Below, in pieces: positions 1,675-62,139 of a DNA stretch of 64,000 nucleotides. Source of the stretch: Cetorhinus maximus (Eukaryota); assembly GCF_964194155.1 (NCBI RefSeq), contig NC_135901.1:9114001-9178000 (forward strand), written 5' to 3'. Both the position numbers and the translations under genes were made by a program. The notes beneath the pieces are model-generated. The model saw only the letters and a program-made list of their open reading frames with translations. It was not told where the DNA came from and searched no databases. Numbering within the stretch: the first letter of the stretch is position 1; every line of letters begins with the position of its first letter.

Positions 1675-2442
1675 TCACACATGAACCCGCTGGTGTCTCA
1701 ACAAGTTGGATGGTCGATTGAATCCCTTCCCACATTCAGAGCAGGTGAACGGCTTCTCCCCACTGTGAGTGCGTTGGTGTGTCTGGAGATTGGATGACTG
1801 AGTGAATCGCTTCCCACACACGGAGCAGGTGAATATCCTTTCCCCAGTGTGAACTCGCTGATGTTGAATAAGGTGAGATGATTGTCTGAATCTCTTCTCA
1901 CAGTGAGAGCAACTGAATGGTCTCTTGTCAGTGTGAACAAGCTGGTGTTTAATTAGATCAGGAGAGGTTTTAAAGCAACCTCCACAGTAAAAGCATTTAA
2001 AAGGCCTCTCGTCACTGTGAACTCTCTGGTGTGACCCCAGGCTGGATGACTTAGTGAATTCCTTTCCACACACAGAGCAGGTGAACGGTCTCTCCCCAGT
2101 GTGACTGCGTCGGTGAGTTTCCAGCTGGGATGGGAAACTGAATCCCTTCCCACAATCCCCACATTTCCACGGTTTCTCAATGGTGTGGGTGTCCTTGTGT
2201 CTCTCCAGGTTGGAAGATCTGTTGCAAATTTGTCCACACACAGAACACATGGACAGTTTCTCCCCACTGTGAATGGTGTGATGTTTTTTCAGGCTGTGTA
2301 ACTGGTTAAAGCTCTTTCCACAGTAAGTGCACTGGAACACTCTCACTCGGGTGTGTGTGTGTGTCTCGGTGCTTTTCTGGTCACACTGATGTTTGTTATC
2401 TTTTCCCACAGACAGATCAGAGAAACATTTCTCCTTCCACAT
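1675..2442 (-). CDS. C2H2 zinc-finger protein, 8 fingers (ZNF-1)
   Basis: 255-aa ORF with 8 CxxC-x12-HxxxH units and TGE(R/K)PF linkers; acceptor ctttctgcag|GATATT gives an exon start near 2543; the true start codon is uncertain. Confidence 0.85.
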   Translation of the reverse strand: MWKEKCFSDLSVGKDNKHQCDQKSTETHTHTRVRVFQCTYCGKSFNQLHSLKKHHTIHSGEKLSMCSVCGQICNRSSNLERHKDTHTIEKPWKCGDCGKGFSFPSQLETHRRSHTGERPFTCSVCGKEFTKSSSLGSHQRVHSDERPFKCFYCGGCFKTSPDLIKHQLVHTDKRPFSCSHCEKRFRQSSHLIQHQRVHTGERIFTCSVCGKRFTQSSNLQTHQRTHSGEKPFTCSECGKGFNRPSNLLRHQRVHV

Positions 2443-12577: not shown

Positions 12578-13741
12578 TCAGAATGAACATGGTTCAGTCC
12601 TGGTATGATTAACAGCATCAACAGGAGTAGAATCCAAACCTTGCAATCGCTTGTGAATCCACTGGTGTGTTCGTAGGTGTGATGACTGAGTGAATGCCTT
12701 TCCGCAGGCATTACAGGTGAACGGCCTCTCCCCACTGTGAACTCGCTGGTGTTTCAGCAGATAGGATGAATGAGAAAATCTCTTCCCGCACACAGAGCAG
12801 GTAAATGGCCTCTCCCCACTGTGAATGCTCTGGTGTGTCAGCAGGTTGGATAACTGAGTGAATCCCTTCCCACACACAGAGCAGGTGAACGGCCTCTCTC
12901 CAGTGTGTACTCGCTGGTGATTCAATAGGTTAGGTGACCGAGTGAATCCCTTCCCACACACGGAGCAAATGAACGGTCTCTCCTCAGTGTGAACCTGTTG
13001 ATGTGTCAGAAGGTTAGATGAACGGGTGAATCCCTTCCCACAGTCAGAGCAGGTGAATGGTCTATCCCCTGTGTGAAGTTGCTGGTGTATCAGAAGGTTG
13101 GATGAATTAATGAATCCCTTCCCACAGTCAGAGCAGGTGAACGGCCTCTCCCCAGTGTGAATTCGCTGGTGATTCAGTAGGGCAGACGGACGGCTGAATC
13201 CTTTCCCACAGTTGGTACAGGTGAATGGCCTCTCTCCAGTGTGAGTATATTGATGTGTTAGCAGATCCTTTTTGCTTTTAAAGCTCTTGTCACAGTCAGA
13301 ACAATTAAAAAATTTGTTATCAGAGTGAACAAGTTGATGTGTCAGAAGGTGGGATGACTGAATGAATCCCTTCCCACACTCGGAGCAGGTGAACGGCCTC
13401 TCCCCAGTGTGAATACGTTGATGTATCAGCAGATCTTTTCTGCATTTAAAACTCTTCTCACAGTTAGAACATGTAAACGGTCTCTTATCAGTGTGCACAA
13501 GTTGGTGTGTCACAATGTGGGATGACCGAGTGAAGTCCTTCCCACACACAGGGCAGGTGAATGGCCTCTCCTCAGTGTGAACTCGCTGGTGTGTCCGAAG
13601 GTTGTACAAATGGGTGAATCCCTTCCCACAGATAGAGCAGGTGAACGGTCTCTCCCCAGTATGACTGCGCCGATGAACTTCCAGTTGGGATGGGAAATTG
13701 AATCCCTTCCCACAGTCCATACATTTCCATGGTTTCTCCAT
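12578..13741 (-). CDS. C2H2 zinc-finger protein, 13 fingers (ZNF-2)
   Basis: 387-aa ORF from MEKPW with 13 fingers; acceptor ttttacag|GGTATT near 14103; candidate exon-1 donor CGG|GTAAGA at 14434. Confidence 0.9.
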   Translation of the reverse strand: MEKPWKCMDCGKGFNFPSQLEVHRRSHTGERPFTCSICGKGFTHLYNLRTHQRVHTEERPFTCPVCGKDFTRSSHIVTHQLVHTDKRPFTCSNCEKSFKCRKDLLIHQRIHTGERPFTCSECGKGFIQSSHLLTHQLVHSDNKFFNCSDCDKSFKSKKDLLTHQYTHTGERPFTCTNCGKGFSRPSALLNHQRIHTGERPFTCSDCGKGFINSSNLLIHQQLHTGDRPFTCSDCGKGFTRSSNLLTHQQVHTEERPFICSVCGKGFTRSPNLLNHQRVHTGERPFTCSVCGKGFTQLSNLLTHQSIHSGERPFTCSVCGKRFSHSSYLLKHQRVHSGERPFTCNACGKAFTQSSHLRTHQWIHKRLQGLDSTPVDAVNHTRTEPCSF

Positions 13742-17382: not shown

Positions 17383-18504
17383 ATGGAAGGAAAAAGCACC
17401 GTTCACAGTGGGGAGAAACCGTACACGTGTTCTGTCTGTGGACGAGGCTTCAACCGATCATCTAATCTGTTGAAACATAAATGCAGTCACAACAGGGAGA
17501 AACTGTGGAAATGTGGGGACTGTGGGAAGGGATTTAATTACCCATCAGAGCTGGAAAATCATCAACGAATTCACACTGGGGAGAGGCCATTCACCTGCCC
17601 TGAGTGTAGGAAGAGATTTACTTGTTCGTCCAGCCTGCTGAAACATCGGCGAGTTCACACTGGGGAGAGGCCGTTCACCTGCTCCGAGTGTGGGAAGGGA
17701 TTTGCTCGGTCATCCACCCTGCTGACACACCAGCGAGTTCACACTGACGAGAGACCTTTCAAATGCCCAGACTGCGGGAAGTGCTTTAAAAGTCCCCGGG
17801 AACTGACTGCCCATCAACGTGTTCACACTGATGAGAGGCCATTCAGGTGCTCGCACTGTGGGACTGGGTTCAAGACATTATTTCACCTCACTGTTCACCA
17901 GCGAATTCACACTGGGGAGAGCCCATTCACCTGCTCCAAGTGTGGGAAGGGATTTGCTAACGCATCCACCCTGCTGAATCACCAGAGTGTTCACACTGAC
18001 GAGAGACCTTTCAAATGTCCAGACTGTGGGAAGTGCTTTAAAAGTTCCGGGGACCTGATGATCCATCAACGTGTTCACACCGATGAGAGACCGTTCAGGT
18101 GCTCTCACTGCGGGACTGGGTTCAGACAATCATCTCAACTCATTGTACACCAGCGAATTCACAATGGGGAGAGACCATTCACCTGCTCAGAGTGTGGGAT
18201 GGGATTCACTCGCTTATCCATCCTGTTGACACACCAGCGCACGCACACTGGGGAGAGGCCATTCACCTGCTCTGAGTGTGGGAGGGGATTCACAACCACA
18301 TCCTCCCTGCTGAGACACCGGCGAGTTCACACTGGGGAGAGGCCATTCAGCTGCCCCGAGTGTGGGAGGGGATTCACAACCACATCCTCCCTGCTGAGAC
18401 ACCGGCGAGTTCACACTGGGGAGAGGCCATTCACCTGCCCCGAGTGTGGGAGGGGATTCATAACCTCATCCAAACTGCTGAAACATCAGCGAGTTCACAA
18501 GTGA
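17383..18504 (+). CDS. C2H2 zinc-finger protein, 13 fingers (ZNF-3)
   Basis: ATG at 17383 in AACATGG context (the ORF-track start at 17341 is TTG); 13 fingers ending HQRVHK*; acceptor tttcacag|GGTATT at 17274. Confidence 0.9.
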
Positions 18505-22061: not shown

Positions 22062-22760
22062 TTTGTGAACTCGCTGGTGTCTCAGCAGGGTGGATGAGTG
22101 AGCAAATCCCTTCTGACATACGGTGCATGTGAATGGCCTCTCCCCAGTGTGAACTCGCTGGTGCTCCAGCTGGTTGGATAATGTAGTGAATCCCTTTCCA
22201 CACAAGGAGCAGGTGAACGGCCTCTCACCAGTATGAATGCGCTGGTGTGTCAGCAGGTTGGCTAACTGAGTGAATCCCTTCCCACACTCGGAGCAGGTGA
22301 ATGGCCTCTCTCCAGTGTGAACTCGCTGGTGTACAGTGAGGTCAGATAATTGCCTGAACCCAGTATGGCACCGAGAGCACCTGAATGGCCTCTCATCAGT
22401 GTGAATACGTTGATGGCGCATCAGTTCACCAGAACTTTTATAGCACTTCCCACAGTCTGGGCATTTAAAAGGTTTCTCGTCAGAGTGAACTCGCTGGTGA
22501 GCCAATAGGTTACATGACAGAGTGAATCCCTTCCCACACTCGGAACAGGTGAATGGCTTCTCCCCGGTGTGACTGCGCCGATGAGATTCCAGCTGAATTG
22601 GAAAATTGAATCCTTTCCCACAATCCCCACATTTACACGGTTTCTCCTCAGTGTGACTGCGCTTGTGTCTCGACAGGTCAGATGATCGGTTGAAGCCTCG
22701 TCCACACACAGAACACGTGTATGGTTTCTCCCAACTGTGAATGGTGTTTTTTCCTTCCAT
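22053..22760 (-). CDS. C2H2 zinc-finger protein, 8 fingers (ZNF-4)
   Basis: ATG at 22760 (AACATGG), [14 protein letters not shown] start, 8 fingers; acceptor tttcacag|GGTATT near 22869. Confidence 0.88.
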
Positions 22761-29616: not shown

Positions 29617-30460
<844 letters not shown>

Positions 30461-30804
30461 CTGCAGGGGTTGGATTCTGCTGTGATTGCAGCTGTTAATC
30501 ACATCCAGGACTGGACCATGTTCATTCTGAGAGTTGGTGTTCCTTTCTGCCGATAATAATTGCACTGAAGTTTAATATTCTGGTTATATATCAAATAAAT
30601 CAGCTGTGTTAAACTCATTGTTGTAGATTTTTGTTTTTCCCACCTGAGTGTTTAACATCACCTGGCTGGAGCTCAGAAAGAACAAACTGGGGGAGGATCA
30701 TACGGCCGGAACAGAACTTCAACCTGGACACAGTCCAGGAGCACGATGACCATCCACACGTTGTTCCTGTTGGATAAAATCAAACACTGCATTTATTCTC
30801 CGTC

Positions 30805-32470
30805 TAGTTATCTGACCTTTCCATTTTATACAGTTTACACTGATCTCCATGGTAACACAGATATTGCGTTTCCTTCTCTCGTTACTGAACACTCAATCTA
30901 AGACTTGTTTCTCCCAATTTATGTAGAACGCCGTATGGACCTTCCCAAGTAGCCCCCCCATTTAACAATATTTTTAACGTCACTTCATCTCCCATTGAAC
31001 AGTTTATGTAACAGGTGGGGTGTTTCTCCCTGGAGGTGTTGAGATGGGCAGCACCATCTTCTCCATTGCCTGTAGCAGGGAGAATGCTGAGGTTTGTTGG
31101 AGGTTCTGGAGAAACTGGTCCTGAGTCTGTTGAGTAGCCATGGGGTGTGGGACCCGGTGGGAAGCACGATCTGGATTGGACAATGAGCTGTGACCGGGGA
31201 GTGAACAGGAGTGGAGTGAATGGTCATTAAGACACCAGGTGGGGCAGTGACCCAGTCATTGGGCTTGATCAGATCATCAGCTCCGTTCATGACAGCTTTT
31301 TCAGTGTCGTTTCTCCAGAGTGATTAAACATCTTGACCATCCCACTAGAGTCTGGGCGGTAGGGGATGCAGAAATGTTGTTACACACCCACAAGATGACA
31401 CAGCTGCTGTATTGCCTCTGCTGTGAAATGAGAACCATTATCACTATCTTTTTCAGAAAGCTCCATCTGGTAAAGATCTGTTCCCACAAAGTTTTAGCTG
31501 TAGGTGACTGCATCATTTATACAGACAGGGAAAGCTTCAATCCACCATGTAAACATACCTATAACTACCAGGATATACCGGTCCCCTCCTTTTACTGTGT
31601 GTAATAGGCCTGTATAATCAAACTGCAATATTTTCCACGGAACATCATTCAGATGGGATATGTCCATTGGGACCTTTCACTTCACAGGTCTAGATTAATT
31701 TGGACACAGATGAGACACAGGTTCAGGTGGTGATGGATGTCCTGGTGCATTGAGAACTCAAGGAAAGAGAAACGTGCCCCAATTTGATCCATAAACAAAA
31801 TTAATTATTTTCTAAGACATTAAGGTGTGACCCAATTCAAATTAGAGCCATTCTTGTGATAGGAATGTTGAGGCCATGATCAGATCACCAATCATCTTAT
31901 TGAATGGCCGAGCTGGCTCGAGTGGCCTAACCCTAATTCATATGTTCGTATCATGTATAATGGGGGAGACCTTACTTGCTGTGAGTGATGAGGGAAAGTC
32001 TTTCCTATGGTGCCTAGCCTCTTTGGCCATAATCACAATGATTGTATTTTGGGTGGATCGCAAGGAATCCTCTCTGGAGCAGCTTTCCTAGTGAGTCAGT
32101 CTGTCTGGTTATTACCATCACCCTCTTCACTAACCCCTGCCGCTAATGCACCTTCACCCTACAAATAGCAACTTGTCCTGGTCACTTACCAGCAATATCT
32201 CAAATCATTCGGAGTTTGAAATGGTGGGTGAGAGTTTTCCTTTTTGCTGTGGAGAGGCTGTGTTTTTGTTGCCGGAGAAGTAGGTTTACACTAAGGGAGT
32301 TACAAATAAAGGAGCTTTCAGAATAGTTGGTGATTCTCTCAGTAAGAGCTTGAAGGGCTGTGATCATAATAACCTCAGCTTTCTGGGCTAAATATTGTGG
32401 TGGGTGTTTAATAGGATACTATGGCAGTCATGGGGAAGTAAAGACACAGCAGGAGTCTGATACGGTCCTT
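30805..32470 (-). mobile_element. Endogenous retrovirus-like pol remnant: RNase H and integrase
   Basis: Hand translation of the minus strand: LAQKAEVIMITAL..TNYSESSFIC and SEEGDGNNQTD (RNase H); MHQDIHHHLNLCLICVQIN (IN zinc site); PWKILQFDYTGL..RYILVVIGMFTWWIEAFP, DSDNGSHFTAE, IPYRPDSSG (IN core); WEGPYGV..YHGDQCKLY (GPY/F); many stops and frameshifts. Confidence 0.85.
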
Positions 32471-32472
32471 GT

Positions 32473-35400
32473 ATTTTTTTCTTCATTCATGGGATGTGGG
32501 CTTCGCTGGCTGGGTCAGCGTTTTTGCCAATCCCTAGTTGCCCTTGAGAAGGTGGTGGTGAGCTGCCTTCTTGAACCGCTGCAGTCCATGTGGTGTAGGT
32601 ACACTCACAGTGCTGTTAGGAAGTGAGTTCCAGGATTTTGACGCAGCGACAGTGAAGGAATGGTGATATATTTCCAAGTCAGTGACGTGGAGGGGAATTT
32701 CTAGGGGGAGGTGTTCCCATCTATCTGTTGCCCTTGTCCTTCTAGATGGTAGTTGTCGTGCGTTTGGAAGGTGCTGTCTAAGGAGCTTTGGTGAATTACT
32801 GCAGTGCATCTTGTAGATGGTACACACTGCTGCTACTGTGAGTCGATGGTGGAGGGAGTGAATGTTTGTGGATGGGATGCCAATCAAGCAGGCTGCTTTG
32901 TCCTGGATGGTGTAAAGCTTCTTGAGTGTTGTGGGACCTGCACATCCAGGCAAGTGGGGAATATTCCATCACACTCCTGATTTGTGCCTTGTAGATGCTG
33001 GACAGGTTTTGGGGAGTCAGGAAGTGAGTTGTTCATCACAGAGTTCCTAGCTGCTGACCTGCTCTTGTAGCCACAGTAGTTATATGGCTAGTCCAGTTCA
33101 GTTACTGGCCAATGGTAACCCACAGTATGTTGATAGCGGGAGATTCAGTGATGGTAATGCCATTGAACATCCAGGAGCGATGGTTGGGTTCATCCTTGTT
33201 GGAGATGGTCATTGCCTGGCACTTTTATGGTGCGAATGTTATTTGCCACTTGTCAGCCCAAGCCTAGATATTGTCCAGGTCTTGCTGCATTTGGACATGT
33301 ATTGCTTGAGTATCTGAAGAGTTGCAAATGGTGCTGAACATTGTGCAATCATCAGCAAATATCCTCAATTCTGACCTTATGATGGAAGGAAGGCCATTGA
33401 TGAAGCAGCTGAAAATAGTTGGGCCGAGGACAGTACCCTTAGGAATTCCCACAGTGAAGTCCTGGAACTGAGTTGATTGACCTCCAACCACCAAAACCAT
33501 CTTCCTTTGTGCTAGGTATGACTCCAACCATAAGACCATAAGACGTAGGAGAAAAAGTAGGCCGTTCGGCCCATCGAGTCTGCTCCGCCATTCAATGAGA
33601 TCATGGCTGATCTGACAATCCTCAATTCCACTTTCCTGCCTTTTCCCCATTACCCTTGTTCCCTTACTGCTAAAAATATGTCTACCACAGCCTTGAATAT
33701 ACTTAGTTATCCAGCCTCTACAGCTCTCTGCGGTAAAGAATTCCATAGATTCATTACCCTCTTATAGAAGATAATTCCTCCTCATCTTTGTCTTAAATAG
33801 GTGACCACTTGCTCTGAGATTATGCCCTCTGGTCCTAGCCTCCCCCACAAGGGGAAACAACCTCTCAGTATCTAACCTGTCAAGCCCCCTAAAAATCTTA
33901 TACGTTCCGATAAGTTCACCTCTCATTCTTCTAAACCCCAATGAATACAGGCCCACCTACTCAACCTCTCCTCATGAGAAAATCGCTCCATACCCGGGAT
34001 CAACCTTGTGAACCTTCTCTGGACTGCCTCCAATGCCAGTATATATTTCCTGAGATAAGGGGACCAAACTGTTCACAGTATTCTAGGAATGGTCTAACTC
34101 GTGCCTTGTATAATTTTAGCAAGCCTTCCCTATTCTTACTCTTCATTCCTTTTGAAATAAAGGCCAACATTCAATTTGCCTTCCCTATTACCTGCTGAAC
34201 TGATATGTTAGCTTTGTGGGACTCATGCATGAGCACTTCCAAATCCCTGTGTGTGGTAGCTTTCTGCAGTCTTTCTCCATCTAAATAATATTCAGCTCCT
34301 CTAATCTTCCTGCCAAAATGCATAATCTCACACTTTCCCACATTATATTCCACGTACCAAGTTTTTTTCCCACTCACTTAACCTGTCTATATCCCTCTGT
34401 GGACCCTTTGTATCATCCTCACCATTTGCTTTCCCACCTATTTTTCTGTCATTTGCAAAGTTGGCGATAGTACATTCACTTCCCACATCTAAGTCATTAA
34501 TATATATTGTAAAAAATTGTGACCCCAGCACTGAAAGGAAGTGGCTGCAGAGATAGTGGAGGCATTGGTCGAAATATTCCAGCACTCACTGGATTCTGGG
34601 AGGGTCCCAGCGGATTGGAAAATGTCTAACCTGATGCCCCTGTTCAAGAAGGGAGGGACTATAGGCTATAGGCCAGTCAGCCTAACATCTGTAGCTGGGA
34701 AAAAGGTAGATTCCATTATTAAGGAAGAAATAGCAGGACATTTAGAAAAGCTGAACGCAATCAAACAGAGTCAACATGGTTTTGTGACAGGGAAATCATG
34801 TTTGACAAATTTGCTAGAGTTCTTTGACGATATAATAAGCATAGTTGATAAAGGGTAACTTTAGTGTATTTAGATTTCCAGAAGGCATTCGACAAGGTGT
34901 CACATAAAAGATTATTGCTCATGATGGGAGCTCACGATATTTGGGGGTATTGATTGAGGATTGGTTAACACACAAAAGACAGGGAGTCATGATTAATGGG
35001 TCTTTTTTCAGGTTGGAAAGACGTAACTAGTGGAGTGCCACAAGGATCAGTCCGAGGACCTCAATTATTTATGATCTATATTAATGACTTGGTGGAGAGG
35101 GCAGAGTGTAATGTGTCCAAACTTGCTGAAGATACAAAAATAGGTGGGAGGGCACATTATGATGAGGACATGAGGAATCTTCAAGCGGATATAGATAGGC
35201 TGAGTGAGTAGGCAAAAGCTTGGCAGTTAGAGTTTAATGTAGGAAAGTGTGAGGTTATGCACTTTGGTAGCGAGAGTCAAAAGGCAAACTATTATTTAAA
35301 TGGAGACACTCCAAAAAAGTGCAGCACAGAAGGATTTGGGTGTTCTTGTGCATGAAACACAAAAAGTTAGCATGCAGGTGCAGCAAGCGATTAGGGAGGC

Positions 35401-36540
35401 AAATTGAATTTTGGCCTGTATTGCTAGGGTGTTGGAGTTTAAGAATAGGGAAGTCTTGTTTCAACTGTACAGGGTGTTGGTGAGGCTGCACCTGGAGTAC
35501 TGTGTACAGTTTTGGTCCCTGTATTTAAGAAAGGATATACTGGCATTGGAGGCAGTTCAGAAAGATTCACTCGGCTGATGCCTGACATGAAGGGGTTAAC
35601 TTATCAAGAACGGCCAAACAGGTTAGACCTTTATTCATTAGAGTTTAGAAGAATGAGGGGTGATCTGATTGAAACATAAAAAATTCTGAGGGGGCTTGAC
35701 AGGGTAGATGTTGAGAAGATGTTTCCACTAGAGAGGGAATCTTGAACTAGGGGACACAGTTACAGAATAAGGGGTCTTTAAAACCGAGATGTGTAGGAAT
35801 TTCTTCTCTCAGAGGGTAGTGAATGTCTGGAATTCTGTACCCCAGAAAGTTGTAGAGGGTAGATCACTGAAAGTATTTAAAGATTTTTGAAATACTGGGG
35901 AGTTGAGGGCTATGTGGAGCTGGCGTGAAAGAGGAGTTGGGGCCTGGAGCAGATCAGCTATGATCTTATTGAATGGCCTATTCCTGCTCGTATTTCTTAT
36001 GTTCTTAGGATCCATGTGTCACTCTACTAGTTGCAGGTCGCCATCCTGAAAATGCAGCCCTTATCCCAGCTCTCTGTCTTCTATTAGTTAGCCAATCCTC
36101 TATCTATGCTAAAATACTACCCCCAACACCATGGCCTCTTATCTTAATAAGTGGCCTTATGTGTGGTGCCTTATCAAACATCTTTTGGAAATCCAAATAT
36201 ATTACATCCATTGGTTCCCCTTTATCTATCGTGCTTGTTACCTCCTCAAAGAATTGTAATAAATTCGTCAGGCATGATTTCCCCTTCATGAAGCCTTTCT
36301 GACTCTGCTTGATTATATTATGCATTTTTAAATGCTCTACTATTACATCCTTTATAATATACTTTAACATTATCCCAGTGAGGGAGGTTAAGCTAACTGG
36401 CCTTTTTTTTGTCTCCTCCCTTTGTGAATACAGTGGAGAGTTTTCCCCCGATTCCCATTGACTCCAATGTTACTAGAGCTCCTTGATGCCACACTCGGTC
36501 AAATGCGGCCTTGATGTCAAGGGCAGTCACTCTCACCTCA
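32473..36540. mobile_element. Nested CR1 block: CR1-A (minus, 32473-33530 and 36431-36540), CR1-B (minus, 33531-34533 and 36009-36430), CR1-C (plus, 34534-36008)
   Basis: Junctions rejoin colinearly (GGKTLH|WLESYLAQRK for A; ..ACACATGGA|TCAGTGCTGGGG for B); each element has RT motifs and a 3' tail. Confidence 0.82.
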
Positions 36541-36880
36541 TACTGCAACATCACAGGCAACTGGTAGTTGTGAGGCTGCAATCTTTTAATGCCTTTGCTT
36601 TGTACTTCAATAATTCATCTACTCCATCCCACTCGGGATACTCCCTTAACTTGGGCTTTATTCATAATGTCACTGTGATATGTGGGGTGTGCAGAATTAT
36701 TGTAGTAAACTCTACCAGGTACTCTATGGGCTTAACTAACCAGTGAACGCTTGATATTGGCTCAGTACACTGGGCCAGTGACCTTTCCACGGAGGTGAAT
36801 GTGCCTGAGAAGCACCCAACTGAAAAATCTTTTCCATTCAGCTCCTGCATCACTGCAGCGGATATATATTGTTCTGACAG
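36541..36880 (-). mobile_element. Retroviral pol connection/tether domain (upstream part of the 30805-32470 element)
   Basis: SEQYISAAVMQELNGKDFSVGCFSGTFTSVERSLAQC..VHWLVKPIEYLVEFTTIILHTPH..GVSRVGWSR resembles the degenerate RNase-H-like tether of retroviral RT. Confidence 0.7.
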
Positions 36881-37289
36881 TGCCAGCAGAGCTGTGGAAT
36901 TAATTGGATAGATCTTCCGAAGAGCCAGCACAAGCATGATGGGCGAAGTGATTTTCATCTGTTCTTTTGGAACAGTGTATATTCCTCATCCCGTGATCGA
37001 GAGAGGAACCAGTGACTATGGGATTGAACGTAGCTAGAATCAGCACCTTCAGGGCAGGAGAGAGGCATGGGAACAAGTGGCAAAAGCTTTAAAATCTCAG
37101 TGTATTCCTACAAGAGAGAAGCGGTTTAAGTCACTTTGAGCAATTCGAGTATGGAAGAGCATTTATTCACGAGGATTCATGTGTGTCTTTTTATTAATTG
37201 ATCTCAATTATTTTCTTTCCCCTCTGGGGGGTTCAATGGTGCTGCTGTTACCCAACATTCCGTTCGGATGTGAATGTGATCTATTAACA

Positions 37290-37760
37290 CTCCAAGAGCC
37301 CAGTACGCAGGCGCAGTACTGGACTGTATCTGGAGCATGCGCAGTGTCACTTTGATCAGAGTCCTGCAAGTGCGGGAGAGGATTTTTTCAGCGGGTGAGA
37401 TTTGATGAGGCGGAGGGAGGAATGGAGCCGGGAGTCGGTGTCGGGAGGGAGTGGCGGCTTCACAAACACCTGAAGTAGGCCGCAAATCCAGAATAAGCCT
37501 CTGCAGGTCCCGCGTTTTCAGCTCTGGAACTTTTTCCCGGAAATAGGCCCAATTTAATGGTCGCCATCTTGGTTCAGTGGCCGTCTTGGTGACGGTACAG
37601 AGCATGGGCGGGGCTTCATGGCACCGGTGACCAGGAGAGAAAATCATTGGCTCATTGATTTTATTCTCGCGCTGCACACAGGAGATGGTGACTGTCCCGG
37701 GTTAATTACCGCCATCGTTTGAAGGGCAATGTGCTGCTGGGCGCACGCGCTGCCATCCTA
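37290..37760. promoter_or_regulatory. CpG-rich promoter, probably of ZNF-6
   Basis: GCAGGCGCAGT, CATGCGCAGT, CGCCATCTT and CCGCCATC (YY1), GGGCGGGG; plus-strand donor CGG|GTGAGA near 37395. Confidence 0.6.
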
Positions 37761-50953: not shown

Positions 50954-51700
50954 ATGGAGAAACCATGCAAATGTGGGGAATGTGGGAAGGGATTCCGGTT
51001 CCCATCTGCACTGGAATCTCATCGCCGCATTCACACTGGGGAGAGGCCGTTCACCTGCTCTGATTGTGGAAAGGGATTCACTCAGTTATCCCACCTGCAG
51101 ATACACCAGCGACTTCACACCGGGGAGAGGCCATTCACCTGCTCTGATTGTGGGAAGGGATTCACTAACTCTTCCAATCTGCGGACACACCAGCGAGTTC
51201 ACACGGGGGAGAGACCGTTCACCTGCTCCAAATGTGGGAAAGGTTTCAGTGATTCATCCAGCCTGCTGATACACCAGCGAGTTCATACTGGGGACAAATT
51301 ATTCAACTGCTCTGTATGTGGGAAGCAATTCAGTCGATTATGCAACCTTCTGCGACACCAGCGAGCTCACACTAGGGAGAGGCCGTTCACCTGCTCTGAG
51401 TGTGGGAAGGGATTTGCTGATCCATCCATCTTGCGGAAGCACCGGCGAGTTCACACTGGGGAGAGGCCTTTCAGCTGCTCCATGTGTGGGAAGGGTTTCA
51501 CTCAGTTAACCAACCTGCTGACACACCAGCGAGTTCACACTGGGGAGAGGCCTTTCATCTGCTGTGAGTGTGGGAAGGGATTCAGTGATTCATCCACCCT
51601 TCTGCGACACCAGGGTGTTCACACTGGGGAGAGGCCGTTCACCTGCTCCGTGTGTGGGAAACGATTCACTCGGTCATCTCACCTGCTGAGACACCAGTGA
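50954..51700 (+). CDS. C2H2 zinc-finger protein, 8 complete fingers plus 1 truncated (ZNF-7)
   Basis: 248-aa ORF from MEKP; last finger ends HLLRHQ*; acceptor catttacag|GATATT at 50600. Confidence 0.88.
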
Positions 51701-60321: not shown

Positions 60322-61164
60322 TTACTTGTGAACTCGCCGGTGTCTCAGCAGACTGGATAACTGACTGAAACCCTTCCCACACATAGAGCAGGTGAATGGC
60401 CTCTCACCAGTATGAATTCGCTGGTGTCTCAGCAGGGTGGATGAATCTCTGAATCCCTTCCCACATTCAGAGCAGATGGACGGTCTCTCCCTGGTGTGAA
60501 CTCGCTGATGCATCACCAGGTTGCATAACTGAATGAATCCTTTCCCACATCCAGAGCAAGTGAATGGCCTCTTCCCATTGTGAACACGTTGGTGTGTCTG
60601 CAGGTGGGATAATTGAGTGAATCCTTTCCCACACTCGGAACAGATGAAAGGCCTCTCCCCGGTGTGAACTCGCTGGTGTGTCAGCAGGTTGGATGACTGA
60701 GGGAATCCCTTCCCACATGTAGAGCAGATGAAAGGCTTCTCCCCGGTGTGAACCCGCTGGTGTGTCAGGAGGGCAGATGAATCGCTGAATCCCTTCCCAC
60801 ACTCAGGGCAGGTGAATGGCCTCTCCCTGGTGTGAACTCGCTGGTGCATCAGCAGGTTGGATGACTGAGTGAATGCCTTCCCACACTCAGAGCAGATAAG
60901 TGGCCTCTCCCCAGTGTGAACTCGCTTGTGTGTCAGCAGGTGAGATGAATTACTGAATCCCTTCCCACATTCAGAGCAGACGAAAGGCCTCTCCCCGGAG
61001 TGAACTCGCTGGTGTTTCAGCAGGTTGGATGACTGAGCGAATGCTTTCCCACACTCAGAGCAGGTGAAAGGCCTCTCCCCAGTGTGAATGCGTTGATGAG
61101 TTTCCAGCGCAGATGGGGTGCAGAATCCCTTCCCACAGTCCCCACATTTGTACGGTTTCTCCAT
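60322..61164 (-). CDS. C2H2 zinc-finger protein, 10 fingers (ZNF-8)
   Basis: 280-aa ORF from MEKPY to HRRVHK*; acceptor ttttacag|GATATT near 61517; candidate upstream donor GTGAGT at 63264. Confidence 0.9.
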
Positions 61165-62139
61165 GGTGCAGGTGTCCTTGTGTCCCTCCAGGTTAACCGC
61201 TCAGTTGAAACCTCGTCTTCACACAGAACATGTGTACAATCTCTCCCCGCTGTGAATGGCGTAATGTTGTTTCGGACTGTGTAACTGTTTAAAGCTCTTT
61301 TCACAGTCAGTGCACTGGAGCACTGTCACTCAGTTGTCTGTGTCTCATTGCTTTTCCAGTCACACTGATGCTTGAAATGTTTTCCCACAGACAGAACAGG
61401 GGAACATTTCTCCTTCCACATTCAAAGGGCTGATGATATTCAGGTCCTGATGAATCCAATAAATCTTGATGCGATATTTGGTTTGAGTTTCCCAGATACA
61501 AGTCCTCTCCTAATATCCTGTAAAAGGAGTTTACAAAAGTCATCATTGTCAGTGCAGGATAAAAATTCACAACACATAATTCTAGTTTCTACGGAACATT
61601 CTTTCTCTCATATTCCCCAGAAGCAGTAACTCTCTGTCCCACACACTGTCCCTCCATTCTCACTCTGCTGTACCTCCCAAATCTCCTGAAGGTGCCATTT
61701 CATGCTGATCAGCAGATCCATGTGCACTGCTTCCTGTCCAGGGCACAGGGGCCTTTGAAATCATTATGCAGGCTATTTATATATATATATATATATATAT
61801 GGAAACATTACTGGATTTAAAATGTGCATAATATACACTGCATTACTTGATTAAAGGTACAGAGAGGATGCAAGGAAGAGCTTTATTTAGGAGCGAGTGT
61901 GCATGACCTGGAACTCACTGCCTACAAGGGTGGAGGAACTCGTGATGATCAGTGATTTCAAAATGAAATTGGTGGACACTTGAAGGAAATAAACTTGTAG
62001 GAGAACGGGGTATAGAGGGAGAATGGGATGGATAGCTCTACAGAGGGTTGGCATGGACTTGAGTTGCTGAATGCATTCCTGTGCTGTAATGACTCGATGA
62101 CTGGAAATATATAACGGTAGCTAGAGTACTATATTACAA

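What the first reader, a model, noticed from the sequence alone, without database searches (positions are those of the whole stretch)
30805..36880. Hidden retrovirus-type pol with two RNase H-like domains (tether plus RNase H) and a GPY integrase
Seen: after removing the 4-kb CR1 block, the minus strand reads tether (36880-36541), RNase H (32460-32080), IN zinc site with CLIC (~31720), IN core (QFDYTG, DSDNGSHF, IPYRPDSSG) and WEGPY..HGDQCKLY (~30940-30830). Known: the tether plus RNase H layout distinguishes vertebrate retroviruses, lokiretroviruses and Odin elements from ordinary Ty3/gypsy elements. Inference: the motif style suggests an old loki- or spuma-related endogenous lineage of cartilaginous fish. 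No LTR, gag, RT core or env is visible.
Basis: partly seen in the sequence, partly recalled or inferred. Interest (0 to 1): 0.7.

Follow-up and report, generated by a model that had tools for sequence, protein, structure and literature searches.

The report
Dead retrovirus fragment riding zinc-finger duplications
This is a broken piece of an old fish-type retrovirus gene, not a lokiretrovirus, that sits just behind a zinc-finger gene and occurs about a hundred times in this shark-like genome, likely because it was copied passively each time that gene was duplicated.

Summary
Tether, RNase H and integrase lie in order on the minus strand and align end to end with a sturgeon dual-RNase-H Pol (E 4e-71). 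In 25 of 40 sampled paralogous stretches the two halves sit 102-117 bp apart, so they are one element split by a later CR1 block. The lineage guess is half wrong. Integrase groups with sturgeon and coelacanth ERVs (100/98); loki and foamy membership are rejected. The RT of those relatives lies inside Retroviridae, in a frog/coelacanth/shark clade with snakehead-retrovirus-like motifs; its exact place is unstable. No sampled copy has RT, most share two frame breaks and the same zinc-finger flank, and they diverge neutrally (dN/dS 0.88; neighbouring finger exon 0.40). One dead fragment was therefore most likely multiplied by gene-cluster duplication, a process described in mouse. Its age is 40-390 My depending on the rate assumed. 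The scan noted related non-loki shark ERVs in other genomes, but not this locus. Verdict: new member of a known kind, useful as a neutral clock for the cluster.

The parts
36541..36958 (-). Tether (degenerate first RNase H) and linker of the retroviral pol; 5'-truncated, no RT upstream
   Evidence: Pfam RT_RNaseH E 7e-5; best blastp 60.5 bits to coelacanth P0006 against 28 or less for loki, SnRV, epsilon, gamma, gypsy rows
32473..36540 (.). Later nested CR1-type LINE block; about 110 bp of pol, with the first RNase H acidic motif, is missing here
   Evidence: CR1-like RT frames (family name from recall); A-rich tail at 32473; edge at 36540 in contigs; 102-117 bp gap in 25 of 40 paralogous stretches; same 4.35-4.70 kb spacing in 15 of 15 near-identical copies
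32066..32472 (-). Second (true) RNase H, broken; frame break between the KVH and GNNQ motifs
   Evidence: 47% identity to P0345 148-241; break shared by 36 of 37 copies scored
31866..31950 (.). Short SINE-like insert specific to the window's subgroup
   Evidence: flanks adjacent in divergent copies; high summed contig depth
31694..31852 (-). Integrase zinc-binding region, degraded (CLIC at 31717); frame break before the core
   Evidence: out of frame with the core in 35 of 38 copies scored
31230..31688 (-). Integrase catalytic core with stops and frameshifts
   Evidence: Pfam rve E 3.7e-6; IN tree 100/98 with sturgeon and coelacanth
30804..31229 (-). Integrase C-terminal region with WEGPY and HGDQC, ending at a stop; the element ends here
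   Evidence: host-type flank begins by 30737
29650..30740 (+). C2H2 zinc-finger exon, AATAAA at 30594 and 3' flank, duplicated together with the fragment
   Evidence: ORFs; finger-exon end 216-489 bp from the integrase end in 43 of 51 copies; dN/dS 0.40
37206..37580 (+). CpG-richer front end of the next zinc-finger gene, standing where RT would be
   Evidence: 66-72% like blocks upstream of two other finger genes in the window; CpG o/e 0.6-0.7; promoter role inferred

Best explanation
This is a dead, RT-less tether-RNase H-integrase fragment of a fish-type retrovirus related to sturgeon and coelacanth ERVs, lying antisense between two zinc-finger genes, and it was likely multiplied about a hundredfold by duplication of the zinc-finger cluster rather than by viral replication. 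Inferred order: a provirus integrated behind one finger gene; it lost everything outside about 2.3 kb of pol and took at least two frame breaks; the gene and the fragment were duplicated repeatedly; subgroups gained their own insertions (the 4-kb CR1 block was itself copied into at least 15 loci). It most likely has no protein function.
For: Shown: colinear match to dual-RNase-H Pol. Halves adjacent in 25 of 40 stretches; 6 more carry another 1.4-kb insert; 9 gave no pair. Motif counts 135 against 17 control and 113 against 6; 23 of 32 exact hits on C24, 9 on small contigs. No RT-region hit in 54 stretches with a Pol profile or in 58 with RT-bearing P0350. Shared frame breaks in 36 of 37 and 35 of 38 copies (not thinned for near-duplicates). 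Same finger-gene flank in 43 of 51, including copies on C2 and C36; the C22 copy has the flank with an insertion. Flat divergence over codon positions (0.149/0.163/0.159), dN/dS 0.88 against 0.79 in shifted frames, finger exon 0.40. Integrase distances track flank and finger-exon distances (rho 0.57, p 0.001 and 0.003), as well as they track RNase H (0.52). Trees.
Against: RT is absent, so lineage rests on integrase, short RNase H/tether pieces and proxy RTs. On integrase alone a union with gypsy is not rejected (AU p 0.091). A sister pairing with SnRV alone is rejected (p 0.006), and the proxy clade is not joined to SnRV in either RT tree, so 'SnRV-like' rests on motifs. Correlation with the upstream flank is weak (rho 0.23, p 0.077). 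About 50 of 100 or more copies were read, and unplaced contigs may duplicate C24 loci.
Confidence: 0.85

Rival explanations
1. It is a lokiretrovirus, the first in cartilaginous fish.
For: Dual RNase H; hosts of the top hits (sturgeon, coelacanth, frogs, turtle) overlap loki hosts; the integrase C-terminus scores 35 bits to a loki row against 40 to the best relative; young ERVs of the same broad clade have an F-like env by Atlas features.
Against: Loki rows form their own clade in IN (100/100) and RT (99/99) trees; union rejected, p 3.9e-5. Relatives have LPQGF-type RT where loki has CPFG. Loki rows scored 74-82 bits against 148 for coelacanth P0002.
Confidence: 0.04
2. The fragment is kept because it does something at DNA or RNA level: a spacer or recombination substrate, or an antisense/piRNA source fed by the flanking finger-gene promoters.
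For: Kept in about 100 copies at one position and orientation; integrase DNA (80-83% identity) is better kept than tether and front-end DNA (70-77%); one contig of a run guessed to be RNA covers 554 bases of it.
Against: Copies tolerate deletions and large insertions; integrase divergence (0.16) equals that of the flank (0.15); the other seven finger arrays of the window have no such fragment (own-genome hits).
Confidence: 0.08
3. The copies are independent integrations of a virus that preferred finger-gene ends, later made alike by gene conversion.
For: Partly star-like copy tree; earlier notes propose conversion among finger-gene front ends (not tested here).
Against: Same truncation, frame breaks and flank in most copies; no purifying signal among copies.
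Confidence: 0.03

Closest known systems
Sturgeon (Huso huso) and coelacanth ERV Pol entries annotated 'NYNRIN-like' or 'gypsy integrase-like 1' (P0001, P0345, P0002, P0003, P0006, P0350)
   Same: Domain order, 39-55% identity by piece, shared insertion after the integrase core, clade 100/98
   Different: Those have long open frames, some with RT; this one is dead, RT-less and tied to finger genes
CmiERV lineage I of elephant shark / clade Huo / class III, snakehead-retrovirus-related (PMC4422223 part 1 of 2 read; PMC6001957 passages)
   Same: Cartilaginous-fish host; RT and RNase H motifs of the relatives resemble SnRV
   Different: No CmiERV sequence was in my trees; monophyly with SnRV not recovered
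Lokiretroviruses (PMC7947760: main text parts 1-3 of 4, supplement passages) and Odin elements (PMC9040795, passages)
   Same: Tether plus RNase H; F-like env in related young shark ERVs
   Different: Separate IN and RT clades; loki was found in 0 of 3 chondrichthyan genomes screened; Odin not tested
ERVs multiplied by segmental duplication in mouse KRAB zinc-finger clusters (PMC12575710: abstract and section 12)
   Same: ERV copy number rises by duplication with finger genes, not by retrotransposition
   Different: There many young ERV families in a mammalian cluster; here one old dead fragment at a fixed position in a shark-like cluster

Membership tests
Retroviridae (vertebrate retrovirus) | Tether followed by a second RNase H | tested here: met
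Retroviridae (vertebrate retrovirus) | RT inside the retrovirus clade | tested here: inconclusive
   No RT in the fossil; proxy RTs P0003/P0006 fall inside, 99/93 and 100/99
Retroviridae (vertebrate retrovirus) | gag, env and LTRs | tested here: inconclusive
   Absent from the window and sampled copies; present in younger elements of the same broad clade
Lokiretrovirus | Integrase in the loki clade | tested here: not met
   AU p 3.9e-5; loki rows labelled by motifs from the PMC7947760 supplement
Lokiretrovirus | RT sister to all other retroviruses, in the loki clade | tested here: not met
   By proxy only:
Lokiretrovirus | Env like paramyxovirus F | tested here: inconclusive
   Fossil has no env; a homologue of a young relative's env scores 0.92 to PF00523 clusters; own fold failed
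Foamy viruses / clade Tu | Pol groups with foamy viruses | tested here: not met
   AU p 0.0016 with BFV; RT trees with BFV and marmoset SFV; fish FLERVs were not in the trees
Class III / clade Huo (SnRV-related) | Pol groups with snakehead retrovirus and ERV-L | tested here: inconclusive
   Polytomy; outside them (95/88); SnRV row P0182 identified by motifs
Single-RNase-H Ty3/gypsy | One RNase H directly before integrase | tested here: not met
   Two RNase H-like domains; integrase alone does not reject gypsy (p 0.091)
Odin retrotransposons | RT sister to loki, no env | not tested
Co-opted integrase gene (CGIN1/NYNRIN type) | Open frame under purifying selection | tested here: not met
   Shared frame breaks; dN/dS 0.88

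The most novel reading that the evidence does not exclude
The fragment is one of the oldest known retroviral insertions (over 200 My at slow shark rates, shared across sharks and perhaps rays) and belongs to an unnamed frog/coelacanth/sturgeon/shark lineage with F-like env that branches between lokiretroviruses and all other retroviruses; its hundred neutral copies record the whole expansion history of the shark zinc-finger chromosome.
Probability: 0.2. Interest if true: 0.72.

Novelty: new member of a known kind. Interest (0 to 1): 0.42.

Why it matters
A single dead insertion copied about 100 times is a selection-free marker for ordering and dating the duplications of a very large shark zinc-finger cluster, where the genes themselves are under selection. 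It shows ERV amplification by finger-gene duplication outside mammals. It also warns that tether plus RNase H, or an F-like env, does not identify a lokiretrovirus, and points to a poorly placed ERV clade of basal vertebrates that databases mislabel as NYNRIN-like.

Tried and rejected
PDB searches gave nothing for tether, RNase H or env, and generic lentiviral integrases for the core. The AlphaFold model of a young relative's env had pLDDT 29 and was not used. Expression: no RNA holder listed; the runs laid are contigs with guessed RNA status, so they say nothing on expression. An env signal-peptide remnant at 30760-30700 was considered and dropped, because that DNA matches the 3' flank of another finger gene up to 30737 and no env-like hit lies behind integrase in the copies. 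The search for fuller copies with P0006 and P0001 returned other, younger families with no DNA match to the fossil's integrase; one search used a stricter first look, so weak matches may be missing. Of seven off-cluster motif hits fetched, four were copies with finger-gene flanks (C22, C2, C36, C24:33.6 Mb) and three were not. Orthology with the sturgeon locus is untested; sturgeon has at least two such loci on different contigs. My label 'beta' for P0269 was wrong; no alpha, beta, delta or lenti rows were knowingly included. Rows dropped: one loki row without integrase; AU tests used 38 of 64 rows; codon tests thinned copies at 5% (22 of 42, 15 of 45, 14 of 24). Chen et al. 2022 on anamniote env is not held. 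No paper on an ERV co-amplified with a shark finger cluster turned up; the library lacks most subscription journals.

Full report
Observation. The minus strand carries, in order, a tether (36958-36541), an RNase H (32472-32066), a degraded integrase zinc region, the integrase core and a WEGPY/HGDQC tail ending at 30804. Pfam finds RT_RNaseH (E 7e-5) and rve (E 3.7e-6) in single frames but not RNase_H. The sturgeon protein P0345, which has Pfam tether, RNase_H, zinc and core domains, aligns over the whole series (E 4e-71 for the RNase H-integrase part, 2e-14 for the tether), against at most 22 bits on 30 shuffles. The window lies at G000:C24:9.11-9.18 Mb of a 4.0-Gb genome.

One element. Both halves match many places in the genome. 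In 40 divergent 10-kb stretches the tether end lies 102-117 bp from the RNase H part in 25, 1423-1450 bp away in 6 (CR1-like frames lie there), and no pair was found in 9; several stretches are near-duplicates. A paralogue shows the first acidic motif of RNase H, which the window lacks at the CR1 site. All 15 near-identical copies keep the 4.35-4.70 kb spacing, so the CR1 block was duplicated too.

Lineage. The best relatives of the integrase are sturgeon and coelacanth entries. In a 64-row integrase tree four natural fossil frames group with them at 100/98, while loki (100/100) and gypsy (100/100) rows form separate clades. AU tests on 38 rows reject union with loki (p 3.9e-5), BFV (0.0016) and SnRV alone (0.006), but not with gypsy (0.091). 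Tether and RNase H pieces score about twice as high to this clade as to loki, SnRV, epsilon, gamma or gypsy rows; the integrase tail is less clear (40 against 35 bits for loki). The fossil has no RT, so I used the coelacanth relatives. Their RT falls inside Retroviridae (99/93), in a clade of frog, coelacanth and shark elements (97/89), unresolved beside SnRV, ERV-L and foamy rows. With the tether added, that clade (99/98) falls outside foamy, ERV-L, SnRV and gamma/epsilon (95/88). These trees lack several genera and fish FLERVs, so the position is open. RT motifs match the SnRV rows and not the loki rows of the PMC7947760 supplement. SnRV-related ERVs are known from elephant shark (PMC4422223, part 1 of 2 read) and clade Huo spans all major vertebrate groups (PMC6001957, passages). 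Wang and Han found loki in 0 of 3 chondrichthyan genomes.

Mechanism of spread. Two 20-base patterns give 135 matches (control 17) and 113 (control 6); of 32 exact matches to the first, 23 are on C24 between 0.4 and 24.6 Mb and 9 on small contigs, some perhaps duplicates. No stretch of 54 hits the RT part of a Pol profile; hits begin in the tether at the earliest and end at the integrase tail at the latest, and RT-bearing P0350 agrees on 58 stretches. A frame break in RNase H is shared by 36 of 37 scored copies and one before the integrase core by 35 of 38. A finger-exon end lies 216-489 bp from the integrase end in 43 of 51 copies; the other 8 show the same flank. Divergence among 22 thinned copies is flat over codon positions, dN/dS 0.88 in frame against 0.79 in shifted frames, while the adjacent finger exon gives 0.40. 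Integrase distances correlate with the flank (rho 0.57, p 0.001) and finger exon (0.57, p 0.003), weakly with an upstream block (0.23, p 0.077). Upstream of the tether stands DNA like the front end of other finger genes. Inference: one truncated, already broken insertion was carried along by duplications of a finger-gene unit. The process is described for mouse KRAB clusters (PMC12575710, abstract and section 12), and dating ERVs by segmental duplicates is standard (PMC8922424, passages).

Age. Median K2P distance among copies is 0.17, maximum 0.33. That gives 39, 86 or 390 My at 2.2e-9, 1e-9 or 2.2e-10 per site per year; the last is the rate assumed in PMC4422223, and PMC10587355 (passages) measures 7e-10 per generation in a shark. 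Gene conversion would make these underestimates. Contigs of two other coded organisms carry pieces (554 bases with 57 differences; 495 with 22), so it is probably not confined to one species; their relatedness is unknown.

Related elements. The genome also has at least two younger dispersed families of the same broad RT clade, with dual RNase H, LTR pairs 92-97% alike in 6 of 10 loci examined, and env frames. A database homologue of one env resembles paramyxovirus/baculovirus F clusters by Atlas features (0.92); Pfam, PDB and my fold did not confirm it. They show no DNA match to the fossil's integrase and are not its source. Earlier scan notes on other genomes reach the same reading for such elements; they are unchecked notes, not support.

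Verdict. Real feature; a retrovirus-type pol fragment, not loki, not foamy; dead; amplified with finger genes (0.85). New member of known kinds, interest 0.42. The loki supplement was cut when stored, so part of its integrase alignments was not seen.

Noticed in passing
L111-L130 (for example G000:C9:52.87 Mb, C7:91.68 Mb, C14:65.04 Mb): At least two young dispersed ERV families with dual RNase H, LTR pairs 92-97% alike and env frames of predicted F-like type; weak Ig-domain hit ahead of env in L120 (E 0.011).
   Followed up: partly
window 1743-2331, 12715-13723, 17428-18436, 22127-22715, 29808-30392, 43225-44317, 50804-51560, 60390-61314: Eight C2H2 finger arrays on both strands; only one has the ERV fragment behind it.
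   Followed up: partly
L132 (C22:10.49 Mb), L139 (C2:4.77 Mb), L140 (C36:5.30 Mb), L138 (C24:33.66 Mb): Finger gene plus fragment units outside the main 0.4-26.6 Mb cluster; L139 and L140 form the deepest split of the copy tree.
   Followed up: partly
L054, L055, L064, L065, L068, L074 and window 32473-36540: Two apparently different CR1-type insertions sit in the same short tether-RNase H interval in separate subgroups.
   Followed up: no
L074:1988-2785: A Penelope-like (GIY-YIG-type, by recalled motif) frame inserted into the integrase tail of one copy.
   Followed up: no
G000 contigs C424, C564, C611, C789, C1077, C2760, C1643, C644, C2334: Nine equally scoring integrase hits on small contigs, possibly another ERV caught in a tandem or segmental array.
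   Followed up: no
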